Shown here piece after piece: positions 8,911 through 59,412 of a stretch of 64,000 nucleotides of DNA (positions within the stretch are counted from its first letter, which is position 1; each line of letters opens with the position of its first letter). Made by a program: the position numbers and the translations under genes. Source of the DNA: an uncultured virus (IMG/VR IMGVR_UViG_3300032053_018320). Its lineage: Duplodnaviria > Heunggongvirae > Uroviricota > Caudoviricetes. Under the pieces are notes generated by a model. That model did no database searches, was not told where the DNA came from, and was given only the letters and a program-made list of their open reading frames with translations. Where the stretch lies: the IMG/VR virus record IMGVR_UViG_3300032053_018320; one strand, given 5' to 3'.

Positions 8911-9290
8911 ATCATTTCCTTGATGTCGTGAATTATATCTGCAGCAGATGATCTCGTTTCCTCTGTAACTTCTTTGCCTTCGCTGATGTCAGCGAATACG
9001 GCAACGAGATCGATCATTTTTCTCAGTTTTGCTAAGTTATCGGGTGATAGAATGATGATGCCATTACAATGATCGTTCAATTTATATAGAAAAAACTTCA
9101 ATTCATCGATAGTTTCTCGTGACTCATCGTTTGCGACTCGTTGATATAATGACGACCAATACTCAAACAGTTCCTTCGCCCGTTCTCGTCGTTCTTCAGT
9201 CACATCATCGAGCACGAGATAACTCTGGATGATGACACCCGGAAAGGCACTCGCCATATCCTTTAACATCATGATTTGTTTGAACCTCAT
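8901..9290 (-). CDS. hypothetical protein
   Basis: translationally coupled to both neighbours. Confidence 0.6.
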   Translation of the reverse strand: MRFKQIMMLKDMASAFPGVIIQSYLVLDDVTEERRERAKELFEYWSSLYQRVANDESRETIDELKFFLYKLNDHCNGIIILSPDNLAKLRKMIDLVAVFADISEGKEVTEETRSSAADIIHDIKEMMWL

Positions 9291-10108
9291 AATCTAGCCG
9301 AAATCATCCTTTGTATATTTTTGCTTCTCACGATGATGTCATATCTATACCCGCCACGTTGCTCATGGGCAATGTTCTCACTGACTTTTGCCCTAAATGT
9401 TGGAAATTCACTAAACTTATCTGCTAATTCTTCATTGAGCGTTAAAATCCATGACCCCTTTAAATCACGAATGATTGACACGAGTTCGTCATAATCAAAA
9501 TTCTTGACACCGTAGGCATAATCAGTATCGTATGGTGGGTCCATGAAGAAAAAGGTGTTTTCACCATCCAACTCCGTGAGTATTTTTCTATAATCCTTGT
9601 TCTCGATGGTTGCTAACTTCAACCGCTCGTGAGCGGGAAGTATCCACGACAACTCGAAAAACTGACCACATAATTTCCGCATACCATATTCTTTCAAGGA
9701 ATTATATGCTCCGCAGAACGGGGCGTTGAATACACCCTTTGAGTTACGACGATACAATCCACAATACGCGTTGCGAATGAGATAATAAAAACGAAACGCT
9801 GTTTCAATTGGATCGTTCTTGATGGATGTCCAATCAGTTTTCCTATATCCGTCAAATATTGTTCTGCTTTGTAACGTGAAATCAAATTTCGCCATGAACT
9901 CGTCTGGATGATCACGAAGAACAGCAAAAAAAGTGACAAGAAGATCGTTGACATCGTTGATTATCTCGATTTCCGATGGATTCTTGGCAAAAAACACCGA
10001 ACCACCACCAAAGAATGGTTCTACGTAGACCTTGTGTTTTGGAATGAGCGGTAAAATTATATCTACTAATGATCGCTTCGATCCAAGCCACTTAATCGGT
10101 GAATTCAT
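9287..10108 (-). CDS. Dam-family (D12 class) DNA adenine methyltransferase
   Basis: PIKWLGSK, EPFFGGGSV (SAM binding), NDVN, DPPY. Confidence 0.9.
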   Translation of the reverse strand: MNSPIKWLGSKRSLVDIILPLIPKHKVYVEPFFGGGSVFFAKNPSEIEIINDVNDLLVTFFAVLRDHPDEFMAKFDFTLQSRTIFDGYRKTDWTSIKNDPIETAFRFYYLIRNAYCGLYRRNSKGVFNAPFCGAYNSLKEYGMRKLCGQFFELSWILPAHERLKLATIENKDYRKILTELDGENTFFFMDPPYDTDYAYGVKNFDYDELVSIIRDLKGSWILTLNEELADKFSEFPTFRAKVSENIAHEQRGGYRYDIIVRSKNIQRMISARL

Positions 10109-10112
10109 CGTT

Positions 10113-10379
10113 TCACTCTTCTGTCACGAAATTGAGCACTGCCGTTTCGTTAATCACTGAACCAGTCGGATCAACGAATATATCTTTCATTCGCATTAGT
10201 CTGCCGCTTTCCTTCTTGAGAACGGGAACTGATAATACCTTATCCATCGCTGCTGCGGATCGGGCTTTCGTATTTTTATCGGTGACAAGCACATTAACGT
10301 CGATTCCCTTGCTTGATAGGAATGTCGCTAATTTCTTGCACTTATCACATTGACTCGTTGAATAGAGCGTTATCACCAT
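10113..10379 (-). CDS. NrdH/glutaredoxin-like redoxin
   Basis: TLYSTSQCDKC (CxxC) and SVPVL cis-Pro loop; likely ATG at 10379. Confidence 0.75.
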   Translation of the reverse strand: MVITLYSTSQCDKCKKLATFLSSKGIDVNVLVTDKNTKARSAAAMDKVLSVPVLKKESGRLMRMKDIFVDPTGSVINETAVLNFVTEE

Positions 10380-10495
10380 GAGACAAACCCAACTTATATT
10401 ATTGTTGACACCTTTAATATGTTTCGTCTTTAAATTCGACGATAGATTAAAAAGGCTCACGGGGATAGTTCTATATAGCACTGTTTAGTAAGAAC

Positions 10496-10762
10496 GTGGA
10501 GAATATCATGGCGCCATCCCGTGAAACCGCTGACATTTTAGATATATTCGATAAACTCAATGTGTCAGCGAAAGCATTCATCGAATCAAATGACAATATT
10601 TTGACCTTGATGACAAAGATAGAAAAAATGAATGAGCAACAACGAATCAAGATTCCTAATTATATACTGCGAGACATTGAAAAGTTCGGCAATCACGTAA
10701 CTTTTTCTGGTAATCTCTTGAAAGAAATTCATGATTGGTTTGAAACTCAAACGAAGGAATGA
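10496..10762 (+). CDS. small helical hypothetical protein
   Basis: ORF after a TATATA box near 10472. Confidence 0.5.
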   Translation: MENIMAPSRETADILDIFDKLNVSAKAFIESNDNILTLMTKIEKMNEQQRIKIPNYILRDIEKFGNHVTFSGNLLKEIHDWFETQTKE

Positions 10763-10847
10763 ATGTGTTCGTGCTGATAATGTGTTAAAAACGAATGAAA
10801 TATATCAGCATCGAAATTTCGAGTGTTTAAAAATAAAAAATTATTTT

Positions 10848-11324
10848 TCATTCAACATATGATGTCAGCATCCACGATGGATATGACACATAACTACCAA
10901 CGTGACCAACAGGATTCTTGATTGCTGGAACATTCTTTTTATAAATTGCTGCCAATTCATCCATGAATTTCGTTATCACGTTATTAAATTCGTCTTCATC
11001 TTCTTTATCACGTTTATCGATCGTGAAATTCATCGTTTCATCGATTGCGTGATGATACGTGCTCGACGCAAGTGAAACGAGACGCTGACGATTGACACCA
11101 GGTGGAATGAATATATCGAGACCAAACTTTTCGCTAATACTTCTCAATGTCTCGTCACCAAGGTCTTGACGAGAACAACTGGATTCGTCGTTGAATAATT
11201 CATCGAATAATCGTGGATCGATGGAAACTCCATATCGAAAATCTGCTACACACGGCATATTAACACCATTACAACAGACGTCACGAGAAATAAAAGGATA
11301 TTTGTTCGTTACACAAGGGTTCAT
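10848..11324 (-). CDS. hypothetical protein, paralog of 11321..11743
   Basis: ADFRYG...LFDELF...FIPPGVNRQRLVSL...SWMLTSYVE. Confidence 0.75.
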   Translation of the reverse strand: MNPCVTNKYPFISRDVCCNGVNMPCVADFRYGVSIDPRLFDELFNDESSCSRQDLGDETLRSISEKFGLDIFIPPGVNRQRLVSLASSTYHHAIDETMNFTIDKRDKEDEDEFNNVITKFMDELAAIYKKNVPAIKNPVGHVGSYVSYPSWMLTSYVE

Positions 11325-17796: not shown

Positions 17797-18329
17797 TCTA
17801 TCACATCAACGCATTCAACAACTTCACCATCTTCATGAACGTTGAACGGAACATCGTCCTTGCATTGATAATTTTCCAGTCGCTCGATCAATTTCTCGAA
17901 TGGAATGGTTAGTTGAAAATCACGAAGAATTTTCATGATTGCAGTGTTTATGGCTTCAAGATAGATGTATTCCATTCCATACTCTAGTCGTTCATCGATA
18001 TATCGTATGATGTTGAAGAATGATATATTGAGCATACTGCTCGTTATTCTATAATCATCAATATCATATTTGAACGCAAATTTATACTTCTTGAAATAAA
18101 TCACCACTAGGTTGATGAGCGACGCGATCTTATTGATGAAAATATCGTTCGTTGCCACCAACTGGTATTGTTTGAGATTCATGCACTCAGCAAGATGCTT
18201 CTTGATGTGATCGAATAATATTTTGTCCTTACCACGTTTCACATATTCATGAGCGATGATGGTTGTCCATTGTTCATATCGTTCGTGAATATCTGGTTGT
18301 AGTTGAGTAGTTTGTTCTGTCATGATCAT
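17793..18329 (-). CDS. hypothetical protein
   Basis: coupled ORF. Confidence 0.55.
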   Translation of the reverse strand: MIMTEQTTQLQPDIHERYEQWTTIIAHEYVKRGKDKILFDHIKKHLAECMNLKQYQLVATNDIFINKIASLINLVVIYFKKYKFAFKYDIDDYRITSSMLNISFFNIIRYIDERLEYGMEYIYLEAINTAIMKILRDFQLTIPFEKLIERLENYQCKDDVPFNVHEDGEVVECVDVIE

Positions 18330-19378
18330 ACTTCACCAAATCGTTCTCGTATTAACGTTCGTAATTTCTGCGTTGGTAATGATGGTTGGTATCTATCACA
18401 CTTTTCACAATCGTTAGGATTTATCACACAATTACAAAATGATTTGCACCTGATCTCGCTCGATTCGTCCTTGAACCATCGACACGTGAGAATATCATCG
18501 ATGTTCTTGGTCGTTGAATCTATCTCGTCGATCGTATCGCTAATGCTTCGTCGAACAACTGCATTGATGAATCGAGGTTGCTTCGTTCGATCAACACGAG
18601 AGCCAGAAAACGATTGTTGCTGATACACGTTAAGGACTCGTTTCAAGGCAGTTTTACAATATGCTTTTGATATGTCGATGCCGGCAAATCGCCATCCAAG
18701 TTCGTATGCAACTTTCGCAGTCGTTCCTACGCCGTTGAATGGGTCTACAACGAAATCGCCACGAAATGAGTAAAACTTAAGCAATCGTCTAGGTAAAGCC
18801 TCTGGAAAGACAGCGGGATGTCCATATGTATCTTCTTGGTTTGGCTCTGGTTGAAAATACCATTCTGCTTTTCGCCACTCAACAAATTCGATCTCGGTCA
18901 TATCGATGTTTTCGTTATTGCCGTGTTTCTTTGGGTCTTCTTTGTAGTAGATATCGATGTATTCCCACGGATACATAATATATGGCGCTGACGGTGATCC
19001 ATAACTACCAAACTGCGAATGTCTCGTGTTGCAACCTTTCATCCATTCGTGCTCGGATTTCCACTTGAATCCTATCTTGTGCAGTTGATGCCAAATGACG
19101 TGATGTGTCGGAACGCCAGCTGAAAACACTGGCTGAACGTCAATGCAAATTCGACCATCAGGTTTAAGGATTCTATAACATTGTTGCCAAATAGGAACGA
19201 GCGACGCAAGATATTTCATTGGCGAAATTGTGTCATCAGTCGAATCGTAAGATTTGCCAAAACTATACTGTGGCGAAGTGATAATTATGTCAACGGAATT
19301 ATCTGGAAATAGTGTTAACGCATACCGTGAGTCACCGTTGATGATGACATTTGTTAAGGCATCCAACACTTGTGACAT
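18326..19378 (-). CDS. beta-class amino DNA methyltransferase (probably N4-cytosine) with a C-terminal Cys-rich domain
   Basis: TSPQY catalytic motif before DPFNGVGTT; HPAVFPEALP. Confidence 0.85.
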   Translation of the reverse strand: MSQVLDALTNVIINGDSRYALTLFPDNSVDIIITSPQYSFGKSYDSTDDTISPMKYLASLVPIWQQCYRILKPDGRICIDVQPVFSAGVPTHHVIWHQLHKIGFKWKSEHEWMKGCNTRHSQFGSYGSPSAPYIMYPWEYIDIYYKEDPKKHGNNENIDMTEIEFVEWRKAEWYFQPEPNQEDTYGHPAVFPEALPRRLLKFYSFRGDFVVDPFNGVGTTAKVAYELGWRFAGIDISKAYCKTALKRVLNVYQQQSFSGSRVDRTKQPRFINAVVRRSISDTIDEIDSTTKNIDDILTCRWFKDESSEIRCKSFCNCVINPNDCEKCDRYQPSLPTQKLRTLIRERFGEV

Positions 19379-20246: not shown

Positions 20247-20513
20247 TTAATAATTTCTCATTTTCTCGCCATTTGTTATCGTGAGTTCTAAGTTTTCCTT
20301 GGTTATATAATTACCCCAATTATTGATGAAAATCGTGTTAGGTTCATCAAACATTAAACCTCTCATGAATGTCTCGGAATCACTAAACGATAGATGTAAT
20401 AACCGTGATAAAAGAACACGATCGATACCATATCTATACTCATCGATGATTTCATGAACCGCTTTGTTGTCAATCGTTTTAGACAACCGATTTTTCAAGC
20501 TTGTTTGCCGCAT
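20247..20513 (-). CDS. hypothetical protein
   Basis: last ORF of the long minus-strand operon; begins MRQTSLKNRL. Confidence 0.5.
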   Translation of the reverse strand: MRQTSLKNRLSKTIDNKAVHEIIDEYRYGIDRVLLSRLLHLSFSDSETFMRGLMFDEPNTIFINNWGNYITKENLELTITNGEKMRNY

Positions 20514-24098: not shown

Positions 24099-24611
24099 CT
24101 ACATACATCGTCGTGGAATGATGATTCCAATTCCGAGCGACCGAGCAAACCCGATGAATATCAGTATATTTCCAGATTTTTTAAAGATTTTCATTCGCTG
24201 TATGAAGTCAATATCGTTATCGACAACGACGATACCTTTTTTACTGGATAGTAACGTTTTTATTCTCGATAGTTTCCATTTTTGAACTGACTCAACGAAG
24301 TCTGGATCATCGTCTTGTCCGTCATACATCATTAGCGTTGCAGTCGGAAAACCATTGATGATCAGTTGCTCGGTTGTCATATCAAGGAATTCTATTTTTC
24401 TACCTGTTAAATACTCGATTTGTATACCTGCATCTTTAATTTCATTTACTATTACTGCCATATCATCGAAATATTTAACGTAGGTTCGTTCGTCTGGTGA
24501 TAGTAAATTGAACTTGACATCTTCACAAAGCGTGCCATCGATGTCAAACACACACGTGTCAATGACATTCATTAAGTTTTTGCTTTGTAAAAGTGATAAT
24601 AATTCATTCAT
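24099..24611 (-). CDS. HAD-superfamily phosphatase (PNKP/LNS2-like)
   Basis: FDIDGT, LTGR, K, VDND. Confidence 0.8.
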   Translation of the reverse strand: MNELLSLLQSKNLMNVIDTCVFDIDGTLCEDVKFNLLSPDERTYVKYFDDMAVIVNEIKDAGIQIEYLTGRKIEFLDMTTEQLIINGFPTATLMMYDGQDDDPDFVESVQKWKLSRIKTLLSSKKGIVVVDNDIDFIQRMKIFKKSGNILIFIGFARSLGIGIIIPRRCM

Positions 24612-27508
24612 AATGTGCTCATCGATGCTCCTTGAATGACATCATCATACGACCAGCCAGCGGCTTTCAAGATAGAAACGAGATTTTCCTTGATTTGTTT
24701 TTTATACAGCGACTCATAATCAAGGGTAAATCCCTTGAGACTATCCGGACTGTCGATCGCAAGAACATCGGTTGGTGGCAATCTCGCTGGACTCTTGGCA
24801 ACATAAATCCACTTCACCTTATCACCAGACTGCCAGTTCTGATGTAAATTTTCTATACCCCATTGGGCTGCACGGACATGCGGAGGCCACGATGTTCGTG
24901 GTTTCTTTTCTTTAACAGCGGAATACTCACTTATATCATCTGTCAACGAGACATTGAATGCTATTTTATCTATATCGATTTTACCAGATAGAAAAGCGTC
25001 CTTGACCTTCAATACATATTGACGGATGATTGCCTTTGATTTGCCCCACAACATAAATTCCATGACCTTCTTCTGTGTGTCACGACCAATCCTTGATACA
25101 TTTGACCGTTTGGACTCAAATCCCGTGACTTGAATTTCCGTTTCTTTGTATTCCAACCACTCATCTTCACCAGACAACTCATACCACGGCAATCGTGCAT
25201 ATCGCTTCTTGCCACCTTCTTCTTGGTCCTTCTTTGGTGCCATGAGAAATCGTTTGTCGATTTTCTCCGAACGAATCTTGAGCGCGTGATTACCTTGGTC
25301 AGTATTGAAAGTATCAACACAGAATCTATCATATTTCGTGGTCATGAATTGACTGATATAATCCGCTATCTCACAGATTAATTTACCGTCTGTTATTGCT
25401 TCGAGCCCCTTGATCATGATCGAATCTGTATCACCATATAACACCTTCAGATTAACATCTACATCGAATTTTTCCATCAACAACTGTTTCAATTCATCCG
25501 ATGCAACTAATTCGGCAGTATACTTGATGATGACTTGACCACTCAGCGTAACGGACTCAGCATCTTGGATATTATAGAGTGAAGCACCTTCATGACCCAT
25601 CACACCATACCATGTATTGATCTTCGCCTTTTCTGCCATCTGCATTAGGTCATATGTCGTTTTCTCGGAATCAACGATCGTTATCAAGTCATCAACGGTC
25701 GATGAATCAAAATTGATCATGTCGAATTTAGCCTTTACCATATCGACGACAGTTTGTTGCATGGGCTTCTTTCCAGTCAAACTTTCATTCATGGTTCGAT
25801 AGGCTACTTCCTTGATAGCACTTGCTGACATCGCTGTGGCATCTATCTTCTTTATTGCCTTTTGGATCAACGACACTAATTTCTTGCAGGTCTTGAAATT
25901 ATCACGCTGTTTATTGAACTCGATGAGCCGATCCTTGGCAAATCCAACGACATCCTTTCGATAATAGTGACCAGCGGCTGAATGAATAAAATTCAATAAC
26001 TCGTCTTGACTATAGAGATTTGGATCGATTCTCGTCTCCGGCGAAATATTCAAGGTTATAATGATTGATGGATACAGTGATTTCAAGTCAAATGAAATGA
26101 TATTCTCGAAAATGCCTACTTCTGGTTCAAATACATAGGCACCTTCGAGATCGTCTTCATCATCTGGATTTAATGACTTTTCATTCGTCGGCAACACTTT
26201 ACCCATCTTCATTGCCGCTCGTAATTGGTCCATCTCGATGATTCGTGATGTTGCTGTGCTGTCATCGAATGTGCAACCAACTTGTCGTCGCTGAATATCA
26301 AAAAACTTGATGATATTTAGTTTTTTATTCAATTCCCAACAGATTTCAACATCTCGAACGTTATAATAAATTGATTGTTTGAAATTACTTCGCCAAAACT
26401 GACCCACTGAACCAAGGTGAGGCATTTTCTTTAATTTTAACTCATCGTATCCAACATCATCCAACTTATAGGAGTCTTTCATTCCCAAGAATTTCGTTAT
26501 GGCTTTATAACAAAAGAGCATATCCAAGACCGATACTGCACCGACGATTGGATCGCCACGTTTTGATACGAACGCTCGTTGGATCGGTGATAGAAAACTT
26601 GGACTGATATGAGAAATCTTTTGTTGTTGCAAATAGAATAGTCTACCAATTATGTATCCAACGTCGAAATCTACGTTCCATCCAGTTATTATGTCAGGCT
26701 TAACATTTTCATAATATTGCTTGAACTTATAAAACATATCGATTTCATTGTCGAAAAGAAACAATTTCCACGGTATGTCTTTATTAGATTTAGTGAAATG
26801 ATAGACTGAATCAACGACTTCATCCGGCTTTGCGTGCTCCTTTCGTTTTGGATGCCATGCAAATGTATATAATTTATTGGTATACGAATCGATGGTCGTG
26901 ATCATGATGATCGGCATAGTGCCCTTCGTTGCGTCTGGTAATCCACCCATTTCATTATTAACTTCAATATCTATGGTGATCGTCAGCGGTTCTACGCCTA
27001 AATCATCGATGGGCATCAAATTATTGTAATCACGAATGTCATAATCTGGCACTATCGATTGAGGATTGACACTTGCTGGACGAGTTAATAATTCATTCGA
27101 GACAGTGAAACTCGATTTGATTCCCGTTGTTGCCAAGAAATTCTTCGGAAACAACACATTGGATTGATAGGTCTGATTGCCGATCAGCACCTTTTTTCGC
27201 AGTTCACTAACTTGAGCAGGCACGTATGTCTCGATTTTCGTCACTGGATCGCCAGTAATTGATAATAAATGACTTGGATCACGATACACTCGTCTAACCA
27301 TTTCATTAGCGAGTGTAATCGAATCACCTGCCAAGTAAAAGTATGGAATGAAACCTCTAACTTTTAAATGTTCCCGATGTTTTGGATTTAACTTACTTCG
27401 ACAAAGCATATGTAAGACTGGATCGCCATTTTCGAGTGTATATTCGATATTGAAAACACTAAAATCTACCGTTCGTTGTTCTGCTGCTTCACTCATCGTC
27501 ATCATCAT
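24608..27508 (-). CDS. polB: family B DNA polymerase with 3'-5' exonuclease
   Basis: DIE (ExoI), GWNVDFD, YNVRDV, DLKSLYPS, KxxxNTWYG, YGDTDS, KKRY. Confidence 0.97.
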   Translation of the reverse strand: MMMTMSEAAEQRTVDFSVFNIEYTLENGDPVLHMLCRSKLNPKHREHLKVRGFIPYFYLAGDSITLANEMVRRVYRDPSHLLSITGDPVTKIETYVPAQVSELRKKVLIGNQTYQSNVLFPKNFLATTGIKSSFTVSNELLTRPASVNPQSIVPDYDIRDYNNLMPIDDLGVEPLTITIDIEVNNEMGGLPDATKGTMPIIMITTIDSYTNKLYTFAWHPKRKEHAKPDEVVDSVYHFTKSNKDIPWKLFLFDNEIDMFYKFKQYYENVKPDIITGWNVDFDVGYIIGRLFYLQQQKISHISPSFLSPIQRAFVSKRGDPIVGAVSVLDMLFCYKAITKFLGMKDSYKLDDVGYDELKLKKMPHLGSVGQFWRSNFKQSIYYNVRDVEICWELNKKLNIIKFFDIQRRQVGCTFDDSTATSRIIEMDQLRAAMKMGKVLPTNEKSLNPDDEDDLEGAYVFEPEVGIFENIISFDLKSLYPSIIITLNISPETRIDPNLYSQDELLNFIHSAAGHYYRKDVVGFAKDRLIEFNKQRDNFKTCKKLVSLIQKAIKKIDATAMSASAIKEVAYRTMNESLTGKKPMQQTVVDMVKAKFDMINFDSSTVDDLITIVDSEKTTYDLMQMAEKAKINTWYGVMGHEGASLYNIQDAESVTLSGQVIIKYTAELVASDELKQLLMEKFDVDVNLKVLYGDTDSIMIKGLEAITDGKLICEIADYISQFMTTKYDRFCVDTFNTDQGNHALKIRSEKIDKRFLMAPKKDQEEGGKKRYARLPWYELSGEDEWLEYKETEIQVTGFESKRSNVSRIGRDTQKKVMEFMLWGKSKAIIRQYVLKVKDAFLSGKIDIDKIAFNVSLTDDISEYSAVKEKKPRTSWPPHVRAAQWGIENLHQNWQSGDKVKWIYVAKSPARLPPTDVLAIDSPDSLKGFTLDYESLYKKQIKENLVSILKAAGWSYDDVIQGASMSTL

Positions 27509-27884
27509 TTGTCGTGGTATGTGAAGAACCCAATGTTATATCGGTGATTTCGTGCCACGGTATAAATTCTGTCAATCTTATTACATCTTTTTTATTCCGA
27601 TGTCTAATTCTGTGATGATGAACATATTTACTCAAGATAGATAATCCACCATCGTCCATCTTTATTGAATCACTAAGTCGCATCCCCTTTTCTCTATGGA
27701 TGACAGACTTATCAACGTGATAGATGATGATCCAAACACCATCGTCCGGTGGAATTGCATTTCCATTTGCTAACAGAGTTTCTAAACCAGATCGAATGGC
27801 GGTTATGCCATTGTAATCATCGTCATCATCTGAACCATCATACGGCGTTCGTGAATCACCCTCGTGAGTCGTTAAATGTTCCAT
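27489..27884 (-). CDS. hypothetical protein
   Basis: fills the gap between queC-like and polB; start uncertain (MEHLTT...). Confidence 0.45.
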   Translation of the reverse strand: MEHLTTHEGDSRTPYDGSDDDDDYNGITAIRSGLETLLANGNAIPPDDGVWIIIYHVDKSVIHREKGMRLSDSIKMDDGGLSILSKYVHHHRIRHRNKKDVIRLTEFIPWHEITDITLGSSHTTTNDDDDE

Positions 27885-28914
27885 CTGCCAAAAAGGCAAG
27901 GAACGATTCGATGTCACTCTTGCGAACCCCGGTATAATCGTTGATATGCTGTGAATACTCATCTGCTATATCTGACTCAGCTAGTTTCGTCCATTGATCT
28001 GCCGGCACTCTATCCTTGAATCCAGCGAAATATACACTCAACATTCGATTGAAACACGGTTTACAATTCATGCACGGGTCTTCGGTTGGAGCAACACACG
28101 TTCTTGCCGTTGACAATGCAAAGTCAAGGTGACCAACACTGTCAAGAAACTGCAATTGTTCAATCTTGCTCATATCACCGACAGGACTCTTGACAATGGT
28201 TTCTACGCCGTTGTAATTTGAAAAGATTTCCGTTGCTTCATCGAAAAACCGACGAGATTTATCACGGTTCTTATCCATGATTTCGCCAGCATATACTCCA
28301 TAATTCAGTGAATGAGATTCACGAGACTTCAAATCCAAGAATTTATTCATCATGGCGAGTATCGTGAAATTTCTTGCTGGTATCTTGAAACCACCGAAAG
28401 GCCATCCATGATCAGCGTTTTTTTCTTCGTCGCTAAAAACAATAGATTCGACAACATATGGATTTATCTGAAATTCCAAGATTGTGTCGAGAAACGAACG
28501 AGTTTCAAAATCCAACTGTTCTTGTTGATAATTCAAGAACATACAACAAATGGATTCTTCACCTTTTGTTTTCAAGCGAAGATATGATGCCATTGAATCG
28601 AGTCCACCAGACAACGCCAGACAATTATTTCGACGAACTGATGATTGTGTTCGTTGCTTCTTGATAACATTCCATTTCAGATCGACGGAAAAAGGAATAT
28701 CTGAACATCCATCTTCGTTGAGTAAGAAATCCAAAAAATTTTCAAGTGTTTCCTTGTTCGTCTTGAAGAATTCTTCTTTTTGACTTGACACATCGAAAAT
28801 AATATCTTGACTACCGGCGTATCCGGCTTTCATTGCTGCAACGCCGAGATTACCGATACCATCTTCTATCAAGTCGTATGTTCCGACCGGGAATAACAAT
28901 TTATCGCTGCTCAT
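27856..28914 (-). CDS. queC: QueC-family PP-loop ATPase (7-cyano-7-deazaguanine synthase-like) with N-terminal extension
   Basis: LSGGLDS, NYQQ, IPARN, SP...MSK, TC...CMNCKPC Zn site; clustered with folE/queD/queE. Confidence 0.75.
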   Translation of the reverse strand: MSSDKLLFPVGTYDLIEDGIGNLGVAAMKAGYAGSQDIIFDVSSQKEEFFKTNKETLENFLDFLLNEDGCSDIPFSVDLKWNVIKKQRTQSSVRRNNCLALSGGLDSMASYLRLKTKGEESICCMFLNYQQEQLDFETRSFLDTILEFQINPYVVESIVFSDEEKNADHGWPFGGFKIPARNFTILAMMNKFLDLKSRESHSLNYGVYAGEIMDKNRDKSRRFFDEATEIFSNYNGVETIVKSPVGDMSKIEQLQFLDSVGHLDFALSTARTCVAPTEDPCMNCKPCFNRMLSVYFAGFKDRVPADQWTKLAESDIADEYSQHINDYTGVRKSDIESFLAFLADGTFNDSRG

Positions 28915-30194
28915 AATTTACCCACCGTCACAGACGATGATTGTTTCATTTTCTTGATGTCTCGCATGAATCTATCATACGCTACATCGTAACCACGTTC
29001 CATTGCCATATCTATGAAGTCAAGCGCTTGTTCAATATCTGGAGCAGCCTTTACTATATAGTCACGAAGTTCTGACTGACTCGTTGAATATGCTTTCAAT
29101 TTCTCGACAAAATTCACATACACATACAGATTGTGGATTGAAATTAGACCACCCGGCAACGAACCAGGCTGTCGCAATATCTCTGGATTTAGAACGACGG
29201 AACATACTGGGCAATTACACGGCAACACCTTCAACTGACTCGTGTTATTAGCACCAAATTCAAGCACATTTTTCATATCGTCCATCCAATACACTCGTCT
29301 AATGTTGCCTTGCGAACCATACGATGATGAATCCATCGTCAATTTGATGTCTCGTCGATAAGTGAAAGCATATAACAAGATCATCGTTGTGTTATACCCA
29401 GATAAAGCGAGATAATGAAATCGTTTATTTTCCGGCACGTTTTGTAGGGCATAAAAACACCCACGAGCGACCGCGAGTGGATCGGAGTATTTACAGGATA
29501 TCGATACGCCGGAAAAATCATCGTAATCGAGCCCCGTCCTATCTTTCAAGACTTTTCTTGCATTCAACATCTGTGCCCAGTCATATCCATGAGCAACGAA
29601 TACCATTTCGTAGGAATCGTCACTCCAATGCTCGTGTTGTAATTTCGCATTGTCTGCCGTTTTCTCTTGGCATTTGACGAGATGACTGCCGTGAGTCAAT
29701 GTCCACGTATTCGCTGCGTCTTGTAATAATGGCGGAATATCCAACGTAAAGCCCCAATTACAATTGAATTGTTGCCATTCAAGGGCTTTAAGCGGATCGA
29801 TATTAACGTGCTGGGTAACAACTTGAAATCCACCTGAGTCTCCACAGAGTGAAAACTTATCCTTCGACGGAATTCCAAACTTAGCACGGAAATCAGCGTG
29901 ATCTTTACCATACCAATACGAGACCAACATATGTGGATAATAGAAAAATGACGAAACGACGTCATCATTCATTCTCCACCACGAAACGTCGAACTCCTTA
30001 TCAGCGTCCTTCAGTTTCAAGAATGATCGATTTTCCATTCCACTCATTGACGGCACGAATACATTATGATTCTCTACCGGTTGTGTGTATTGATTGCCCG
30101 GCATCGTTGCTGGAATAAATGTCGCTTTCGACAAATATTTATGCATTACTTCTGGTCCTGTGTCTGCTACTGCCATTGGTTCTTCTTCAGTCAT
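28911..30194 (-). CDS. TGT-fold transglycosylase, probably DNA-acting (DpdA-like)
   Basis: DSGGFQ, LDIPP, HYL, DSSS, CNCPVC...HN Zn site; next to preQ0 genes and polB. Confidence 0.85.
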   Translation of the reverse strand: MTEEEPMAVADTGPEVMHKYLSKATFIPATMPGNQYTQPVENHNVFVPSMSGMENRSFLKLKDADKEFDVSWWRMNDDVVSSFFYYPHMLVSYWYGKDHADFRAKFGIPSKDKFSLCGDSGGFQVVTQHVNIDPLKALEWQQFNCNWGFTLDIPPLLQDAANTWTLTHGSHLVKCQEKTADNAKLQHEHWSDDSYEMVFVAHGYDWAQMLNARKVLKDRTGLDYDDFSGVSISCKYSDPLAVARGCFYALQNVPENKRFHYLALSGYNTTMILLYAFTYRRDIKLTMDSSSYGSQGNIRRVYWMDDMKNVLEFGANNTSQLKVLPCNCPVCSVVLNPEILRQPGSLPGGLISIHNLYVYVNFVEKLKAYSTSQSELRDYIVKAAPDIEQALDFIDMAMERGYDVAYDRFMRDIKKMKQSSSVTVGKL

Positions 30195-32588: not shown

Positions 32589-32983
32589 TTTTTTTGAATC
32601 ACCATGAATTTTTCTTGAAGCGTTTGAATGAATGCCCAAAAGTTGCTGAGTGATCCACCATCAAGACGTTCGATTGGTGCCTTGAGATTGAACAAAACAT
32701 CGAAGAAGTTTTCCCACGACTCTTGCTTGCCAGTTAACGGAATTACTTTCGATAAATCTATGTGACCTTCATGACAAACCGGACATTTAACGATATCGAT
32801 CGTTCCTTGCTGCCATAACGTTTCATCACATTGACATTCATCTGCCAAAACGCTTATAGCGTATGTATCCATTCTATCGACGTTTTCTTGTCTCGCTATT
32901 TCGTGACAATTACCAGACCCCAATTCGCCTTGATCTGGTTTGTAAAATTGACAAGTTCCACATCGTTTTGTTTCTATGCTCAT
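32585..32983 (-). CDS. Cys-rich hypothetical protein
   Basis: CGTC..., CPVC motifs. Confidence 0.55.
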
Positions 32984-34365: not shown

Positions 34366-34377
34366 TTGATGTTCACC

Positions 34378-47447: not shown

Positions 47448-47933
47448 TTATACCCACTCAAAATTATCGATTGGTTCTGTATTAAACATTGCTTTCATTC
47501 CACGATCATACAATAGAACAGCATCAGCTCTCAGTTTTGTTAATTCGCTTGCTGTGGAACGATAATGGATGTTTAATATGATGATTTGCTCATGATGTCG
47601 CTGACAAACGATGATCGTATCGATTAATCGTGTTAGTGGTGATCGTGACGGACTACTCGTTTCAAGTTCAGTCGTGTCGATGATGACAATATCACGTTTT
47701 TCGCAATCCTTATAGGTATCAATTGGTATTAACTTTATCCACGATCGAAACGTTGTGTATTCAATTTCATCGACATCACCAACGAAACAAATTCGTCGAG
47801 ATGGATCACCGTCGCTACATATCGTCGCGATGTGAAAGGCATCGTTTAAACGATTTGTTATCGCCGTAAAACTGAATCCGTTATTTGCTGAGTGTTTGAC
47901 TAGATAATCCGTCAATCCACCATCGCTCTTCAC
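47448..47933 (-). CDS. hypothetical protein
   Basis: overlaps the fen stop. Confidence 0.5.
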   Translation of the reverse strand: MKSDGGLTDYLVKHSANNGFSFTAITNRLNDAFHIATICSDGDPSRRICFVGDVDEIEYTTFRSWIKLIPIDTYKDCEKRDIVIIDTTELETSSPSRSPLTRLIDTIIVCQRHHEQIIILNIHYRSTASELTKLRADAVLLYDRGMKAMFNTEPIDNFEWV

Positions 47934-48955
47934 AACCGTGCAACAGTCACCCGTCGTGCTTCAAGATTTTTATGCAATGAAAATAACTTCGATTGAACTT
48001 GATTTTGAGCGAATCCAAATTTCGTGACGAGCAAATGACTCAGTTTGTCGAACTCCGGCATCTTGAATCGTATGCTATAATCAGATTCGACCCGTGGATG
48101 CAAGAAAATCTCACGAACTTGATTGGCAAATGATAGAGTTATACATTCACGAACGTTCGTGAGGTTATCGATGACACCCTCGATGTTGTCATACTTCTTG
48201 ATATGTTTGATTGCTGTCTTGACGCCGATATGTGTTATTCCTTGATTGAAGTCAGTTCCAGCAAGGATGGCAACATCGATTAGTTGTTCACGAGTCATAC
48301 CGATGTTTTCAAGCACATCTGATAGAAATATCCGTTCCTTGTCGAGTTTGATTTCCTTGCCTCGAATGTGCATTTTTTCTCCACGATAGATATTTCTCAG
48401 AAATACTTTCGTTCCGAATAATAATGAGTCATAATCTTGAGATGCAGTGCCGTAGAGATCGCCTTTCGCACACATATAGGCTGACTGCGCTTCACCTTCA
48501 CTTTTTGCTTGAACCCACGGAACACCAAACGCCGTGAAGAGTTCTTTCAAATCATCTATCATGTACGATTCAACACTCTGTGTTTCCGTGGATAATTTAT
48601 AGTAGAGATCGAGATCACCATCCTTTCGTGCTTGTTCCGCTCGTTCCTTCATTGCTTCACGGGCTTCTCGTCGTTCAGCCATTGTTTCGAATTTCAAGAA
48701 GTGTTTTTCACCATCGAAAATATAGACAGGTTTAATACCGAGTTCAAGCATTTGCATCGTTTTATGAAAGAAAAACGAGACGTGAGACGTTACTCGATTA
48801 TTGAACTGAAGCGGCTGACCACCAGGTCCTTTTGTAGCATATAAGGCGCCATACAAATAATTGTAGGTGTCGACACCGATTTTCTGACCACGTAAATCAT
48901 CGAATGTTATGACTTTCTTGACGGGATCGACTTGATCCTTGAGTTTTATGCCCAC
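47930..48955 (-). CDS. fen: flap endonuclease-1
   Basis: MG start, GVD, TSH, PVYIFDG, EGEAQ, SQDYDSLLFG, GTDFN.GI..IG.KTA. Confidence 0.95.
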   Translation of the reverse strand: MGIKLKDQVDPVKKVITFDDLRGQKIGVDTYNYLYGALYATKGPGGQPLQFNNRVTSHVSFFFHKTMQMLELGIKPVYIFDGEKHFLKFETMAERREAREAMKERAEQARKDGDLDLYYKLSTETQSVESYMIDDLKELFTAFGVPWVQAKSEGEAQSAYMCAKGDLYGTASQDYDSLLFGTKVFLRNIYRGEKMHIRGKEIKLDKERIFLSDVLENIGMTREQLIDVAILAGTDFNQGITHIGVKTAIKHIKKYDNIEGVIDNLTNVRECITLSFANQVREIFLHPRVESDYSIRFKMPEFDKLSHLLVTKFGFAQNQVQSKLFSLHKNLEARRVTVARL

Positions 48956-52013: not shown

Positions 52014-52988
52014 CTACAACCGGTTCATCGATATAACTTGATTGACTGGCTTTCGTCGTGCATCCAAGAATGTTGCTGTGTCAAGAAACTGTTTAAGATG
52101 AAACGCAACGTTGAACGATACTAATGGCGGAAAGGCATTACCTATCTGTCGTCCTATACTGCCAAAATCGCCTTTCCATTTATAAAATGGCGGAAATCCT
52201 TGTAGTCGTGAGTATTCATCTATGTTCAACTTTCGATCGTATGTTGAATGAAAGATACCCATTGAATGTCCGATATCGGTTGTCAGCGTTCCACAAATCC
52301 CATTCGGGTCGATACGATACTTATTACGAGCATATTTCTTGTTGAACGGGATGTTGGGTCGTTTTTCGTTGACAAGCCATTGAAGCGTTTGATCGGAGAT
52401 ACCGTATTCCGTGTAATCGTCGATGCCATCAAGCCAATACCATGATGGCGTTAATCGCTGATTCGTTAGTGGGATATATTTGAAATTTTCAGCAAGATCG
52501 AGACGAGTGCCGATGAATAATACACGATGACGCTGCTGAGATACGCCATATTGTTCACACTTAACGGTCACCGTATAGACATCATATCCAAGTGCTGATA
52601 GTTCAGCGAGAATACGAAATTTGATCGATCCGTTATCTTTATCGAGAATGTTAGCAACGTTTTCAAGGACAAATACTGACGGTTTTACACCAGCGATAAA
52701 TCTCGGTATCTGAAAGAATAGTTGTCCGCGTTCATCATCGAAACCCTTGCCGTAACCACAAATACTAAATGATGGACACGGGAATCCGCCGACAAGAACG
52801 TCGGCTTTTCGGTCTGGTGGTTGAATGTCGTGGATGTCGCCTTCAGTGATGTCGCCAACATTTGCTCGATATGTTTCACAAGCATCGTGATCGATGTCAT
52901 TTGCGAAAAGAATGTCGTATCCAAGCATCTTGAAGGATATGTCGAATCCACCAGCGCCAGAGAATAATGATACAACGGTGAAAACCAT
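52014..52988 (-). CDS. C5-cytosine DNA methyltransferase
   Basis: LFSGAGG, GFPCPSFS, ENV, QQRHR, RLQGFP, QIGNA. Confidence 0.93.
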   Translation of the reverse strand: MVFTVVSLFSGAGGFDISFKMLGYDILFANDIDHDACETYRANVGDITEGDIHDIQPPDRKADVLVGGFPCPSFSICGYGKGFDDERGQLFFQIPRFIAGVKPSVFVLENVANILDKDNGSIKFRILAELSALGYDVYTVTVKCEQYGVSQQRHRVLFIGTRLDLAENFKYIPLTNQRLTPSWYWLDGIDDYTEYGISDQTLQWLVNEKRPNIPFNKKYARNKYRIDPNGICGTLTTDIGHSMGIFHSTYDRKLNIDEYSRLQGFPPFYKWKGDFGSIGRQIGNAFPPLVSFNVAFHLKQFLDTATFLDARRKPVNQVISMNRL

Positions 52989-53393: not shown

Positions 53394-53396
53394 TCC

Positions 53397-57903: not shown

Positions 57904-58277
57904 TCGCTTCTGTTTTCGAGATGGATCGTTGCTGTTGTTGTATATTTCATCATATCAACATAATATGTTACATTCAAATCGTCATCTATTTCTGCACCCA
58001 TGAACATTGCTGGTTTAAAACACGATTGAATTTCAGCAATGAAGTTCACCGAATATTTATTTGAGTCGGATGACTTGATGATATATGGTGATCCAACGAT
58101 TTTTGCTATCTTGTCACGAAACTCTGAGCCGGATAATGTCGAACCACCGTAAAAGTGACATTCAGTTTGCACACAACTGATGATTCGTTTATACTTGTTG
58201 TTTTCACTCGTGAGACGAGTTATTTCATCGATTAACCATCGAGTATCCGTCAATTCATCGTCAGCCATTTGTCTCAC
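57900..58277 (-). CDS. hypothetical protein
   Basis: coupled ORF. Confidence 0.5.
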   Translation of the reverse strand: MRQMADDELTDTRWLIDEITRLTSENNKYKRIISCVQTECHFYGGSTLSGSEFRDKIAKIVGSPYIIKSSDSNKYSVNFIAEIQSCFKPAMFMGAEIDDDLNVTYYVDMMKYTTTATIHLENRSE

Positions 58278-58591
58278 TTATCCTTGTCATCTAACCACGT
58301 TTTATGCAATCTATCAACGCCAATATCGTTGCTACACAGCCATTCTATGTCATGAAGCACACGAATGATTGGCGCAAAGACGTTCTCGGTTTCAATCTTC
58401 AACGCTTCCATCTGTGCTCGTTTTTCACGTGCTTTCTCGAACACATCGTTTAACTTAGCGCAGATAGCATCCTTATCGTCGATATCATCTCGTGATTTGA
58501 TATAGGCGATCATTTCATCCAGTGTATCGAGACGAATTAGTTTCTCGTCAGTATCTAGTCCGTAATAGTAGTCAAATGATCCGCCGCTCAT
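58274..58591 (-). CDS. phage-type hypothetical protein
   Basis: MSGGSFDY...HDIEW.CS.D pattern. Confidence 0.6.
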   Translation of the reverse strand: MSGGSFDYYYGLDTDEKLIRLDTLDEMIAYIKSRDDIDDKDAICAKLNDVFEKAREKRAQMEALKIETENVFAPIIRVLHDIEWLCSNDIGVDRLHKTWLDDKDK

Positions 58592-58772
58592 TGTTCGGTT
58601 TCACCAGTTTTCCGTGTCGTTCCCAATAATCCAAGAACTCCTTCGTTGCTGTCTTCTCTATATCGTGTCTGCACGAAAGACACAAACAACCCTTGAACTT
58701 TTTGCCGTGTAACTCCCATTTCAATATCATCGACGACGCTGGTTGTCCGCATCTCGTGCATATCATGATCAT
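58572..58772 (-). CDS. small Zn-finger protein, paralog of 59431..59586
   Basis: CTRCG...W..HG...KG.LC.SC. Confidence 0.65.
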   Translation of the reverse strand: MIMICTRCGQPASSMILKWELHGKKFKGCLCLSCRHDIEKTATKEFLDYWERHGKLVKPNNERRII

Positions 58773-58776
58773 TCCT

Positions 58777-59007
58777 TTAGTAGTCTTCTTGTTCCCAACG
58801 ATCGATCAATTTTTCGACTAACTTCACGATGTCATCATCTGTGTCGATCGTTTTCTTGTTTAAATACCACTGTATTTCGTTAAAATGTCCAAGATGTTCC
58901 ATAAGCAATGACTTGAGTCTGCTGAATAGGCTTTCTTGCTGTTTGCCCATCAACATATCAGTGATATCTTGAGGTATTTCTTTCGGAGTTAGTTTTTTTG
59001 CCGTCAT
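58777..59007 (-). CDS. hypothetical protein
   Basis: packed ORF. Confidence 0.5.
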   Translation of the reverse strand: MTAKKLTPKEIPQDITDMLMGKQQESLFSRLKSLLMEHLGHFNEIQWYLNKKTIDTDDDIVKLVEKLIDRWEQEDY

Positions 59008-59010
59008 GAA

Positions 59011-59412
59011 TCACAACCGTGCTGATGTTGCTTGTTTCTCTGTAACCCAATTCCATAATCCCATACCACCCTTGACTGAAATTGGCTCTGGTAATGGTCG
59101 AACATTCTCCAAGATGAATCCATACCGACCTACTGAATAATCGCCATACTCGTCTGGTGCTCTGAATGATGCCGTGAATTGAATACAATCAACAAGATCG
59201 ACGATGCAAAGGATCACTCCACGTTCGATGGTCGATGGATCGTATCCAAAGTGAATGCACGCATCTTTATCGACAGTCCTACCAGCGTGAATTGCAAGTC
59301 GACCCCTATATTTTGTATACCATGATCGTGTTTCAATCGGCTTTCGTCGATCATGAATGAGTGAAGCCCATGGCTGATATAGGGTTAATGCTTTCATCGT
59401 TTCTGGTGTCAT
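59011..59412 (-). CDS. ASCH domain protein
   Basis: KALTLYQPWASLI...K.IETRSW.T.YRG.LAIHAG. Confidence 0.9.
   Translation of the reverse strand: MTPETMKALTLYQPWASLIHDRRKPIETRSWYTKYRGRLAIHAGRTVDKDACIHFGYDPSTIERGVILCIVDLVDCIQFTASFRAPDEYGDYSVGRYGFILENVRPLPEPISVKGGMGLWNWVTEKQATSARL

What the first reader, a model, noticed from the sequence alone, without database searches (positions are those of the whole stretch)
9287..59412. Shared C-terminal peptide links the viral clamp to PolB, FEN1 and the DNA-modification enzymes: candidate replication-coupled modification system
Seen: six unrelated DNA-acting proteins end in the same kind of octapeptide immediately before the stop. They are PolB QGASMSTL, FEN1 RRVTVARL, TGT/DpdA (Q)SSSVTVGKL, C5-MTase QVISMNRL, Dam-MTase QRMISARL and ASCH KQATSARL; consensus roughly [QKR]-x-h-[ST]-h/S-small-[RK]-L-COOH. 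The beta-class MTase has a similar QSFSGSRV just after its catalytic domain, and ORF 20247..20513 starts QTSLKNRL. Metabolic enzymes here (FolE, QueD, QueE, NrdD, ThyA) lack it. Established: archaeal PolB and FEN1 dock on PCNA through C-terminal PIP boxes (QxxhxxFF), and both proteins here lack the aromatic PIP. Inference: this is a non-canonical, virus-specific clamp-binding motif matched to the divergent clamp at 34823..35827. It would load deazaguanine insertion, m6A/m4C/m5C methylation and an ASCH protein onto newly made viral DNA, orthogonally to host PCNA.
Basis: partly seen in the sequence, partly recalled or inferred. Interest (0 to 1): 0.88.

Follow-up and report, generated by a model that had tools for sequence, protein, structure and literature searches.

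The report
Shared tail tags viral DNA enzymes
In a very large uncultured virus, the DNA polymerase, the flap nuclease and several DNA-modifying enzymes all end in the same short peptide, which sits where related enzymes carry their sliding-clamp docking motif, so it is probably a private docking code for the virus's own clamp.

Summary
Six minus-strand genes end in h-[ST]-h-small-[RKT]-L-COOH: Dam, PolB, a TGT/DpdA-like protein, FEN1, a C5-methyltransferase and ASCH. These six are the top six of all 1143 stop-to-stop frames in the window. Each one, when held out, ranks first among the 109 other C-termini.

The 334-aa protein at 34823-35827 is a PCNA-fold clamp. Its profile matches archaeal PCNA at E=1e-13, its model has pLDDT 87.9, and Foldseek returns PCNA at probability 1.00.

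The FEN1 comparison is the strongest evidence. All 6 close FEN1 homologues (56-97% identity) end in VARL, VAKL, VTRL or ETL and have no aromatic PIP. Of 114 more distant homologues (listed at 38-44% identity, those with source names archaeal), 109 carry an aromatic PIP box at that position and none ends in [RKT][LI]. PolB shows the same switch. The DpdA-like tail (66% orthologue, ...SVSKL) and the ASCH tail are also conserved.

The peptide has therefore most likely replaced the PIP box as the clamp-docking motif of this virus clade, and has been extended to DNA-modification enzymes. Binding itself is untested, because the complex predictor was unavailable. Orthogonality to a host clamp is inference.

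The parts
34823..35827 (-). Divergent PCNA-type sliding clamp, 334 aa. The folded ring subunit spans residues 14-290. Residues 291-334 are a disordered acidic tail ending EDDDFV.
   Evidence: No Pfam or named PHROG hit. A profile of 60 homologues hits archaeal PCNA structures at E=1e-13. The AF2 model has pLDDT 87.9 and pTM 0.80. The listed Foldseek matches are mostly PCNA, with some bacterial beta clamps, at prob 1.00; TM up to 0.81 normalised to the target.
24608..27508 (-). Family B DNA polymerase, 966 aa. The C-terminal motif QGASMSTL is encoded at 24611-24634.
   Evidence: Pfam DNA_pol_B and exo1. The three close orthologues end GSSQAKI, GSSQAKI and SAMQIGNL. More distant PolBs end in aromatic PIP-like or QLGLF-type motifs.
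47930..48955 (-). FEN1/XPG flap endonuclease, 341 aa. The motif RRVTVARL is encoded at 47933-47956.
   Evidence: Pfam XPG_N and XPG_I. All 6 close homologues keep [RKT]L-COOH and lack an aromatic PIP. Of 114 distant homologues, 109 have the aromatic PIP there.
28911..30194 (-). TGT-superfamily, DpdA-like transglycosylase, 427 aa. The motif SSVTVGKL is encoded at 28914-28937.
   Evidence: TgtA TIGR00432 E=2.3e-7, below cut-off. 1iq8 E=3.8e-4. TGT-domain proteins of jumbo phages match by tblastn. Its neighbours are QueC-, FolE-, QueE- and QueD-like genes. A 66% identical orthologue in L003 ends ASWSVSKL.
9287..10108 (-). Dam-type (D12 class) N6-adenine DNA methyltransferase, 273 aa. The motif QRMISARL is encoded at 9290-9313.
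   Evidence: Pfam PF02086 E=7e-31. Alignments to phage homologues mostly stop at residues 226-262, before the tail. The one that reaches residue 273 ends differently.
52014..52988 (-). C5-cytosine DNA methyltransferase, 324 aa. The motif QVISMNRL is encoded at 52017-52040.
   Evidence: Pfam PF00145 E=5e-66. The complete domain ends at residue 298, so the tail is a 26-aa extension. The phage homologue whose end was read differs there.
59011..59412 (-). ASCH (PUA-like) domain protein, 133 aa. The motif KQATSARL is encoded at 59014-59037.
   Evidence: Pfam ASCH and phrog_3193. All 3 members of its 90% cluster end in ATSARL, although one has 4 changes in the 5 residues just before it.
27856..28914 (-). 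QueC-like enzyme of 7-deazaguanine synthesis. It has no tail motif.
   Evidence: Pfam QueC E=3e-10. TIGR00364 E=3e-9.
32980..35043 (-). FolE (32980-33624), a QueE-like radical SAM enzyme (33625-34365) and a QueD-like gene (longest ORF 34378-35043). These supply the deazaguanine precursor. None has the tail motif.
   Evidence: Pfam and PHROG hits. C-termini.
18326..19378 (-). Beta-class N6/N4 DNA methyltransferase, 350 aa. It has no terminal motif (ends RERFGEV). Its internal QSFSGSRV is at chance level.
   Evidence: Pfam PF01555. PSSM score 5.7.
30187..32373 (-). 728-aa neighbour of the DpdA-like gene, possibly an N6_Mtase/Eco57I-like methylase (a lead only). It has no terminal motif (ends EELDDD).
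   Evidence: Protein atlas look-alikes. No Pfam, PHROG or NCBIfam hit.

Best explanation
The shared C-terminal peptide has a core of hydrophobic, Ser/Thr, hydrophobic, small, Arg/Lys(/Thr), Leu-COOH. It is most likely the clamp-interaction motif of this virus clade. It has taken the place of the aromatic PIP box at the extreme C-terminus of the virus's PolB and FEN1. The partner would be the virus's own divergent PCNA at 34823-35827.

The same tail has been added to a Dam methylase, a C5 methylase, a TGT/DpdA-like deazaguanine transglycosylase and an ASCH protein. These enzymes would therefore ride on the clamp behind the fork and act on freshly made viral DNA.

Shown here:
- The motif, its enrichment and its restriction to DNA enzymes in the window.
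- The PCNA fold of the clamp.
- The positional replacement of the PIP box in FEN1 and PolB, and conservation of the tail in relatives.

Inferred:
- That the partner is the clamp.
- That the free carboxylate and the terminal Leu are read. This rests on the motif being at the very end in every case: the 6 in the window and all 12 orthologue tails read.
- That modification is thereby coupled to replication.
- That the pair is insulated from a host PCNA.
For: 1. The clamp is real. A profile of 60 homologues matches archaeal PCNA at E=1e-13. The model has pLDDT 87.9. Foldseek returns PCNA at prob 1.00.

2. FEN1. All 6 close homologues (56-97% identity) end in VARL, VAKL, VARL, VARL, VTRL or AETL and have no aromatic PIP in the last 14 residues. 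Of 114 homologues listed at 38-44% identity (many named archaeal flap endonuclease-1 by their sources), 109 have h-x-x-aromatic-h in the last 14 residues. None of the 114 ends in [RKT][LI].

3. PolB. The window and its 3 close orthologues end in STL, AKI, AKI and GNL. More distant PolBs end in motifs such as KLEEFF, SLESFF, TLSDFF or QLGLF. [quoted passage not shown] Archaeal PCNA clients carry C-terminal PIPs (PMC4929162, passages read).

4. No ORF in the window has a canonical PIP or a beta-clamp motif at either terminus. The canonical clamp clients would otherwise have no docking peptide.

5. Statistics. The six are the top 6 of 1143 frames. Each leave-one-out rank is 1 of 110. The association with DNA enzymes gives P=3e-7 to 9e-6.

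6. Conservation on modification enzymes. The DpdA-like orthologue (66% identity) ends SWSVSKL. All 3 ASCH variants end ATSARL, despite 4 changes in the 5 residues just upstream in one of them.

7. The tails lie outside the catalytic cores. The C5 domain ends at residue 298 of 324. Phage homologues of Dam, ASCH and C5 mostly stop aligning before the tail.

8. Codons for the conserved residues differ between genes, for example AGA versus CGG for Arg. This points to selection on the peptide rather than the DNA.
Against: - No binding evidence of any kind. The complex predictor was not available.
- The motif has no aromatic residue. Position 4 of a PIP alignment is Ser/Thr in 5 of 6 cases, so it fails the PIP definition. 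Its docking site, if there is one, is unknown.
- The PolB tails of relatives are only loosely alike. GSSQAKI and SAMQIGNL score 1.5 and 1.8 on the PSSM, a level about 1% of random 8-mers reach. FEN1 P0129 (AETL) scores -0.6.
- No orthologue of the Dam or C5 methylase could be examined.
- Two other DNA-modification-type proteins lack the tail: the beta-class MTase and the 728-aa protein.
- PolB has two internal strict PIP-regex matches, at residues 501 and 812. They lie inside conserved polymerase regions and are probably structural, but they were not excluded.
- I could not show that the close FEN1 homologues sit on the same contigs as clamp homologues. Only contig lengths are given. PolB and clamp homologues share the lengths 28256 and 84907.
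Confidence: 0.6

Rival explanations
1. The tail is a docking or sorting peptide for a shared partner other than the clamp. Candidates include another replisome hub, or a receptor that reads free C-termini as TPR or PDZ-like domains do. It would gather DNA enzymes at a viral replication site without clamp binding.
For: The motif is always at the very C-terminus: the 6 in the window and all 12 orthologue tails read. This is typical of carboxylate-reading receptors. Its last three residues (ARL, GKL, SKL, AKI) formally resemble the peroxisomal [SA][KR][LI] signal. That resemblance is recalled and no peroxisome is implied. The motif lacks the aromatic residues of PIP boxes. Most window ORFs have no known function.
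Against: PolB and FEN1 are the textbook clamp clients, and the motif sits exactly where their homologues carry the PIP. No other clamp-docking peptide is found on them. The virus keeps its own clamp, which co-occurs with PolB on related contigs. No candidate receptor was identified.
Confidence: 0.2
2. The tail is a C-terminal degradation or turnover tag. It would time the abundance of DNA enzymes during infection.
For: Short C-terminal tags with a hydrophobic end residue are used as degrons in prokaryotes (recalled). The motif is strictly terminal.
Against: This does not explain why the tag replaces the PIP box specifically in FEN1 and PolB. It also does not explain why the metabolic enzymes of the same pathway (FolE, the QueC-, QueD- and QueE-like proteins) and NrdD lack it.
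Confidence: 0.07
3. The similarity is imposed at the DNA level. The last codons would be shaped by the overlapping start codon or ribosome-binding site of the next gene, not by selection on the peptide.
For: Four of the 6 genes end in TTATGA or TTGTGA, where the next gene's ATG or GTG overlaps the stop. FEN1 and ASCH share the 12 bases GCACGGTTGTGA.
Against: The 20 junctions with a 4-base overlap end in L (5), K (4), E (4), S (2), V (2), D, T and A, so Leu is not forced. Two of the 6 (C5 and ASCH) have no such overlap. Codons for the conserved Arg, Ser/Thr and Ala differ between genes, and no Shine-Dalgarno-like word is shared. The peptide is conserved in orthologues at 56-66% identity.
Confidence: 0.04
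4. Chance resemblance of six unrelated C-termini.
For: The motif definition is post hoc. The RL ending alone (P=0.0013) would not survive correction for 400 dipeptides.
Against: Each held-out member ranks first in the leave-one-out test. The six are the top 6 of 1143 frames. The motif is conserved in orthologues. It is restricted to DNA enzymes.
Confidence: 0.02

Closest known systems
PIP box and PCNA 'tool-belt' of archaea and eukaryotes (Q-x-x-[LIM]-x-x-[FYW]-[FYW])
   Same: A short peptide shared by many DNA enzymes. It lies at the extreme C-terminus of PolB and FEN1, on a flexible tail, alongside a PCNA-fold clamp. In cellular FEN1 homologues the PIP occupies the same place (PMC4929162, passages).
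   Different: There are no aromatic residues. Ser/Thr stands where the PIP has its central hydrophobic residue. A basic residue occupies the second-to-last position. The motif is always strictly terminal. The client list includes a DpdA-like transglycosylase, Dam, a C5-MTase and ASCH. Even the known non-canonical archaeal PIP of Mre11 keeps the aromatic residue (GTLDSWL; PMC6009593, passages).
Virus-specific polymerase tails that bind virus-encoded clamps (T4/RB69 gp43 with gp45; herpesvirus Pol C-terminus with UL42). Recalled, not from a call.
   Same: A viral family B polymerase docks on the virus's own PCNA-fold processivity factor through its C-terminal peptide, using a sequence that differs from the host's code.
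   Different: As far as I recall, the peptide in those systems is not shared with DNA methylases or base-exchange enzymes, and those tails are aromatic or helical. Here one code would be spread over at least six enzymes.
DNMT1-PCNA coupling of maintenance methylation to replication in animals. Recalled; a PCNA-DNMT1 interaction is mentioned in the abstract start of PMC5264654 in the listing.
   Same: A DNA methyltransferase is tethered to the clamp so that new DNA is modified at the fork.
   Different: DNMT1 uses a canonical PIP box. Here three or four different chemistries (m6A, m5C, deazaguanine exchange and possibly ASCH) would share a non-canonical tail on a viral clamp.
Bacterial beta-clamp-binding motifs (QL[SD]LF; the C-terminal QLVLGL of Pol IV). 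Recalled.
   Same: A precedent for a non-aromatic, Leu-terminated, strictly C-terminal clamp-binding peptide that often begins with Gln.
   Different: The clamp here is PCNA-type, not DnaN-type. No window terminus matches the beta-clamp motif patterns.

Membership tests
PCNA-type sliding clamp | Two-domain PCNA fold | tested here: met
   In the AF2 model, residues 14-290 are confident and the mean pLDDT is 87.9. The listed Foldseek matches are mostly PCNA chains, with some bacterial beta clamps, at prob 1.00; target-normalised TM reaches 0.81.
PCNA-type sliding clamp | Sequence homology to PCNA | tested here: met
   The profile of 60 homologues matches Thermococcales PCNA chains at E=1e-13 to 1e-11. 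Pfam PCNA_N and PCNA_C are not matched by the protein itself or by any of the 30 homologues scanned.
PCNA-type sliding clamp | Closed trimeric ring on DNA, loaded by a clamp loader | not testable with these tools
   The complex predictor was closed. No RFC-like gene was recognised in the window. The two upstream genes gave only a weak AAA_24 hit or nothing.
Canonical PIP box | Aromatic pair at positions 7-8 | tested here: not met
   None of the 6 tails has it; the last two residues are RL, RL, RL, RL, KL and TL. No terminal PIP pattern occurs in any window ORF.
Canonical PIP box | Gln at position 1 and an aliphatic residue at position 4 | tested here: not met
   Gln stands at -8 in 3 of 6 (at -7 in ASCH). 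Position -5 is I, S, S, T, T, T. One ASCH variant replaces the Gln by Pro.
Canonical PIP box | Located at the flexible C-terminus of PolB and FEN1 | tested here: met
   It sits at the same place as the PIP of 109 of 114 distant FEN1 homologues and of distant PolBs.
Canonical PIP box | Binds the pocket under the interdomain connector loop of PCNA | not testable with these tools
The tools do not expose model coordinates.
Bacterial beta-clamp-binding motif | QL[SD]LF or QLxLxL pattern at a terminus | tested here: not met
   No match in the first or last 15 residues of any of the 115 ORFs.
DpdA / TGT-superfamily DNA transglycosylase (the 427-aa protein) | TGT-fold homology | tested here: inconclusive
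   TIGR00432 gives E=2.3e-7 but 29.6 bits against a cut-off of 350. 1iq8 gives E=3.8e-4. tblastn to 'TGT domain-containing protein' of Vibrio jumbo phages gives E=1e-15. There is no Pfam or PHROG hit.
DpdA / TGT-superfamily DNA transglycosylase (the 427-aa protein) | Clustered with preQ0 synthesis genes (FolE, QueD, QueE, QueC) | tested here: met
   All four lie within 27856-35043 on the same strand. The order of the 728-aa gene, the DpdA-like gene, the QueC-like gene and PolB is kept in L003.
FEN1 (XPG family) | XPG_N and XPG_I nuclease domains | tested here: met
   E=4e-16 and 3.5e-24. About 40% identity to homologues that sources name archaeal flap endonuclease-1.

The most novel reading that the evidence does not exclude
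A clade of very large, probably archaeal, viruses has rewritten the PCNA docking code. The aromatic PIP box is replaced by a strictly C-terminal, non-aromatic [ST]-h-small-[RK]-L peptide that only the viral clamp reads. This gives the virus a private replisome tool-belt. Beside PolB and FEN1, the tool-belt carries a deazaguanine transglycosylase, an m6A methylase, an m5C methylase and an ASCH protein. Several kinds of DNA hypermodification would then be written at the fork, on viral DNA only, out of reach of host PIP-box proteins.
Probability: 0.4. Interest if true: 0.85.

Novelty: new variant of a known kind. Interest (0 to 1): 0.72.

Why it matters
Sliding clamps organise DNA enzymes through one short peptide code. 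A virus clade that swaps this code for a different, non-aromatic, strictly terminal one would be a natural orthogonal clamp-client pair. That bears on how viruses insulate their replication from the host, and it could serve as a design principle.

If the tail really docks on the clamp, its presence on Dam, a C5 methylase and a DpdA-like transglycosylase would be the first indication I know of that phage-type DNA hypermodification is physically coupled to the replisome. My literature searches found no such report. Such coupling would explain how new viral DNA is protected from restriction immediately and selectively.

The prediction is directly testable with peptides and one recombinant protein.

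Tried and rejected
- **Complex prediction.** I asked for clamp residues 10-295 with the last 45 residues of the C5-MTase. The tool answered that it is not available.
- **Whole genome.** None is held, so the motif could not be scanned over the other ~245 kb of the contig.
- **Close relatives in public collections.** IMG/VR gave none with the clamp, PolB, the PolB alignment or the clamp alignment. GTDB genomes gave only PolBs at 33% identity or less. JGI metagenomes gave three short contigs, L001-L003. GenBank phages have PolB at no more than about 26% identity among the 25 records listed.
- **Dam and C5-MTase orthologues.** Not found.
The internal QSFSGSRV and the N-terminal QTSLKNRL were rejected as chance level.
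- **N-terminal PIP-like QRKIAVWL in the 728-aa ORF.** It is 1 of 7 strict pattern matches in about 19.6 thousand positions. By my own estimate (no call computed it), that is about the number expected by chance near a terminus.
- **DNA-level explanation (start/stop overlap).** Largely rejected.
- **Peroxisomal-signal resemblance of the last three residues.** This is recalled and was kept only as an analogy for reading a free C-terminus.
- **Host domain.** Sigma-70-like sites are depleted (38 found against 61.4, sd 8.1) and terminator-like sites are not clearly enriched (22 against 15.4, sd 4.3). This does not settle the host.
- **Genes upstream of the clamp.** PDB sequence searches and an atlas search gave nothing usable.
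- **Second structure job.** Not used.

Full report
**What is there.** The window has about 40% G+C and is packed with genes, mostly on the minus strand. A protein search reports the window's own proteins on a contig of about 309.5 kb. From a greedy set of 115 non-overlapping ORFs of 50 aa or more, I printed every C-terminus. This set drops overlapping ORFs, for example the QueD-like 34378-35043 and 27489-27962; I checked those separately.

- Dam: QRMISARL
- PolB: QGASMSTL
- A 427-aa protein: SSSVTVGKL
- FEN1: RRVTVARL
- C5-MTase: QVISMNRL
- ASCH: KQATSARL

Pfam confirms five of the six identities. The 427-aa protein has no Pfam or PHROG hit. It is weakly TGT-like: TIGR00432 at E=2.3e-7, far below the curated cut-off; ArcTGT 1iq8 at E=3.8e-4; and TGT-domain proteins of jumbo phages by tblastn. 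It sits among QueC-, FolE-, QueE- and QueD-like genes. "DpdA-like" is therefore reasonable but not proven.

**Is it more than chance?** Yes.
- RL ends 4 of 115 ORFs where 0.46 are expected. ARL ends 3, and ARL is 7 of 19533 tripeptides overall.
- These patterns are post hoc, so I also ran a leave-one-out PSSM. Each held-out terminus ranks first among the 109 non-members.
- Over all 1143 stop-to-stop frames of 30 codons or more, in six frames, the six are the top six. They score 15.2-20.5. The next scores 12.0 and is an antisense shadow frame.
- All six carriers fall among the 12 ORFs I classed as DNA-acting, and none among the other 103 (P=3e-7). With a stricter classing P=9e-6.
I treat them as chance.

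**Is 34823-35827 a clamp?** Yes. The protein has no Pfam hit and only a weak unnamed PHROG hit.
- It has three homologues at 53-56% identity.
- An exhaustive profile search found 78 proteins at E of 0.001 or better.
- None of the 30 homologues I scanned has a Pfam family.
- I aligned 60 of the 81 sequences in hand. I left out fragments and hits that cover only part of the profile.
- The resulting profile matches Thermococcales PCNA structures at E=1e-13.
- The AF2 model is confident (pLDDT 87.9, pTM 0.80). It has a folded core at residues 14-290 and a disordered tail at 291-334.
- Foldseek returns mostly PCNA chains, with some bacterial beta clamps, at probability 1.00. TM reaches 0.81 when normalised to Haloferax PCNA.

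**What the tail replaces.** This is the key result.

The FEN1 search lists the best 120 of 5931 hits. Six of them are close, at 56-97% identity. All six end in [RKT]L: VARL, VAKL, VARL, VARL, VTRL and AETL. None has an aromatic PIP in its last 14 residues. The other 114 are listed at 38-44% identity. Many are named flap endonuclease-1 of Promethearchaeota, Thermoplasmata and other archaea by their sources. Of these, 109 have a hydrophobic-x-x-aromatic-hydrophobic PIP in the last 14 residues. None of the 114 ends in [RKT][LI]. The five exceptions are a partial sequence and four odd ends.

PolB behaves the same way. The three close orthologues (49-56% identity in the queried region) end in GSSQAKI, GSSQAKI and SAMQIGNL. 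More distant PolBs end in KLEEFF, SLESFF, TLSDFF or LGKWGF. The Pol II-like ones end in QLGLF.

Family B polymerases often bind their clamp through a short C-terminal motif (PMC3201878, passages). Archaeal PCNA clients carry C-terminal PIPs (PMC4929162, passages). No ORF of the window has a canonical PIP or a beta-clamp motif at a terminus.

The simplest reading is that, in this clade, the new tail took over the role of the PIP box.

**Conservation on the modification enzymes.**
- In a related metagenome contig (L003), the gene order of the 728-aa gene, the DpdA-like gene, the QueC-like gene and PolB is kept. The 66% identical DpdA-like protein ends ...RVASWSVSKL.
- The ASCH protein's 90% cluster has three members. 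All end in ATSARL, although one has four substitutions in the five residues just before it.
- The tails lie outside the catalytic cores. The complete C5 Pfam domain ends at residue 298 of 324. Phage homologues of Dam, C5-MTase and ASCH mostly stop aligning before the tail. The two homologue ends I read are different.
- No orthologue of Dam or the C5-MTase was available.

**Rivals.**
- DNA-level cause. Four of the six genes end in TTATGA or TTGTGA, where the stop overlaps the next start codon. However, the 20 such junctions in the window end in eight different residues. Two motif genes lack the overlap, and the codons of the conserved residues differ. This cause is unlikely.
- Another partner. 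A different receptor that reads free C-termini cannot be excluded. The motif is at the very end in the 6 window proteins and in all 12 orthologue tails read. It is not PIP-like in chemistry.
- A degron. This is possible, but it does not explain the positional swap with the PIP box.

**What could not be done.** The complex predictor was closed, so binding is untested. No whole genome is held. GTDB genomes hold only PolBs at 33% identity or less, and GenBank phages at no more than about 26% among the 25 records listed. I did not use the second structure job.

**Host.** The host is unknown. An archaeal host is suggested by three things:
- The clamp is PCNA-type.
- The FEN1 homologues at about 40% identity are named archaeal by their sources.
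- The best PolB matches among isolated viruses are haloarchaeal tailed viruses, at about 25% identity.

Sigma-70-like sites are depleted. None of this is decisive, so "orthogonal to host PCNA" remains inference.

**Literature.** These searches found no report of a DpdA or a phage or archaeal-virus methylase tethered to a clamp, nor of a non-aromatic ARL-type PCNA motif:
- 'PIP box' + 'archaeal virus' + PCNA: 0 papers.
- PCNA + 'archaeal viruses' + PIP.
- DpdA + 'sliding clamp': 2 papers, listing only, neither on the topic.
- 'clamp-binding motif' + methyltransferase + phage.
- 'non-canonical PIP' + archaea + 'C-terminal'.
- A jumbo and archaeal virus set.
- PCNA + DNA methyltransferase + PIP + archaea + replication-coupled.

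I read passages of PMC3201878, PMC6009593, PMC4929162 and PMC7824862 only. No supplements were opened.

**Verdict.** The clamp is confirmed. The tail is a conserved, clade-specific replacement of the PIP box on the two canonical clamp clients, and four DNA-modification or DNA-reading proteins share it. I put clamp docking at about 0.6. The fuller picture, a private clamp code that couples several DNA modifications to replication, I put at about 0.4.

Noticed in passing
window 34823-34954 (clamp C-terminal tail), 35834-36949, 36940-38541: A second kind of shared C-terminus. The clamp ends in EDDDFV after a disordered linker of about 40 residues. The next two genes upstream end in EQEDSIV and SEDDWV. 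All 7 closest clamp homologues (E of 1e-47 or better) end in an acidic run plus an aromatic residue (DDFV, DDFI, EEVF, DDFL, TDFF), against 1 of 74 more distant ones. The L001 clamp ends EDGVF. This resembles the acidic tips of single-strand-binding proteins (recalled). The tail may dock on PolB or another partner, or fold back on the clamp. The ATPase orthologue in L001 lacks the acidic end.
   Followed up: partly
window 30187-32373 (-), residues 11-18: The 728-aa neighbour of the DpdA-like gene has an N-terminal PIP-pattern match, QRKIAVWL. Protein-atlas look-alikes are N6_Mtase/Eco57I-like (a lead only). By my own estimate (no call computed it), the pattern match is about what chance gives.
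   Followed up: partly
window 54729-54800 (+): A single tRNA-Ile (anticodon GAT), on the strand opposite to most genes.
   Followed up: no
window 45352-46302 (-): A 316-aa thymidylate-synthase-like protein matches only part of the Pfam profile (positions 107-221 of 266, E=2e-12). It could be a pyrimidine hydroxymethylase-type enzyme rather than ThyA, which would add another DNA modification route.
   Followed up: no
window 10848-11743 (-) and 3190-4124 (+): Two pairs of adjacent ORFs have near-identical C-termini...SWMLTSYVE with ...SWILTAYVE, and ...VILDSDD with ...MILESDD. They are probably tandem paralogues of unknown function.
   Followed up: no
window 38000-57900: Sigma-70-like promoter matches are fewer than in shuffles (38 against 61.4, sd 8.1). 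Terminator-like hairpins are not clearly enriched (22 against 15.4, sd 4.3).
   Followed up: no
window 18326-19378 (-), residues ~261-350: The beta-class methylase carries a Cys-rich C-terminal extension after its catalytic domain (Pfam domain 29-245). It may be a zinc-binding DNA-reading module used in place of the clamp tail.
   Followed up: no
whole window; L001-L003: The virus clade is represented only by a handful of metagenome contigs. By protein hits, the longest contigs are about 309.5, 208, 164, 85 and 73 kb. It has no close relative in IMG/VR, GenBank phages or GTDB genomes. The genes for the ATPase, the clamp and PolB are adjacent in L001.
   Followed up: partly
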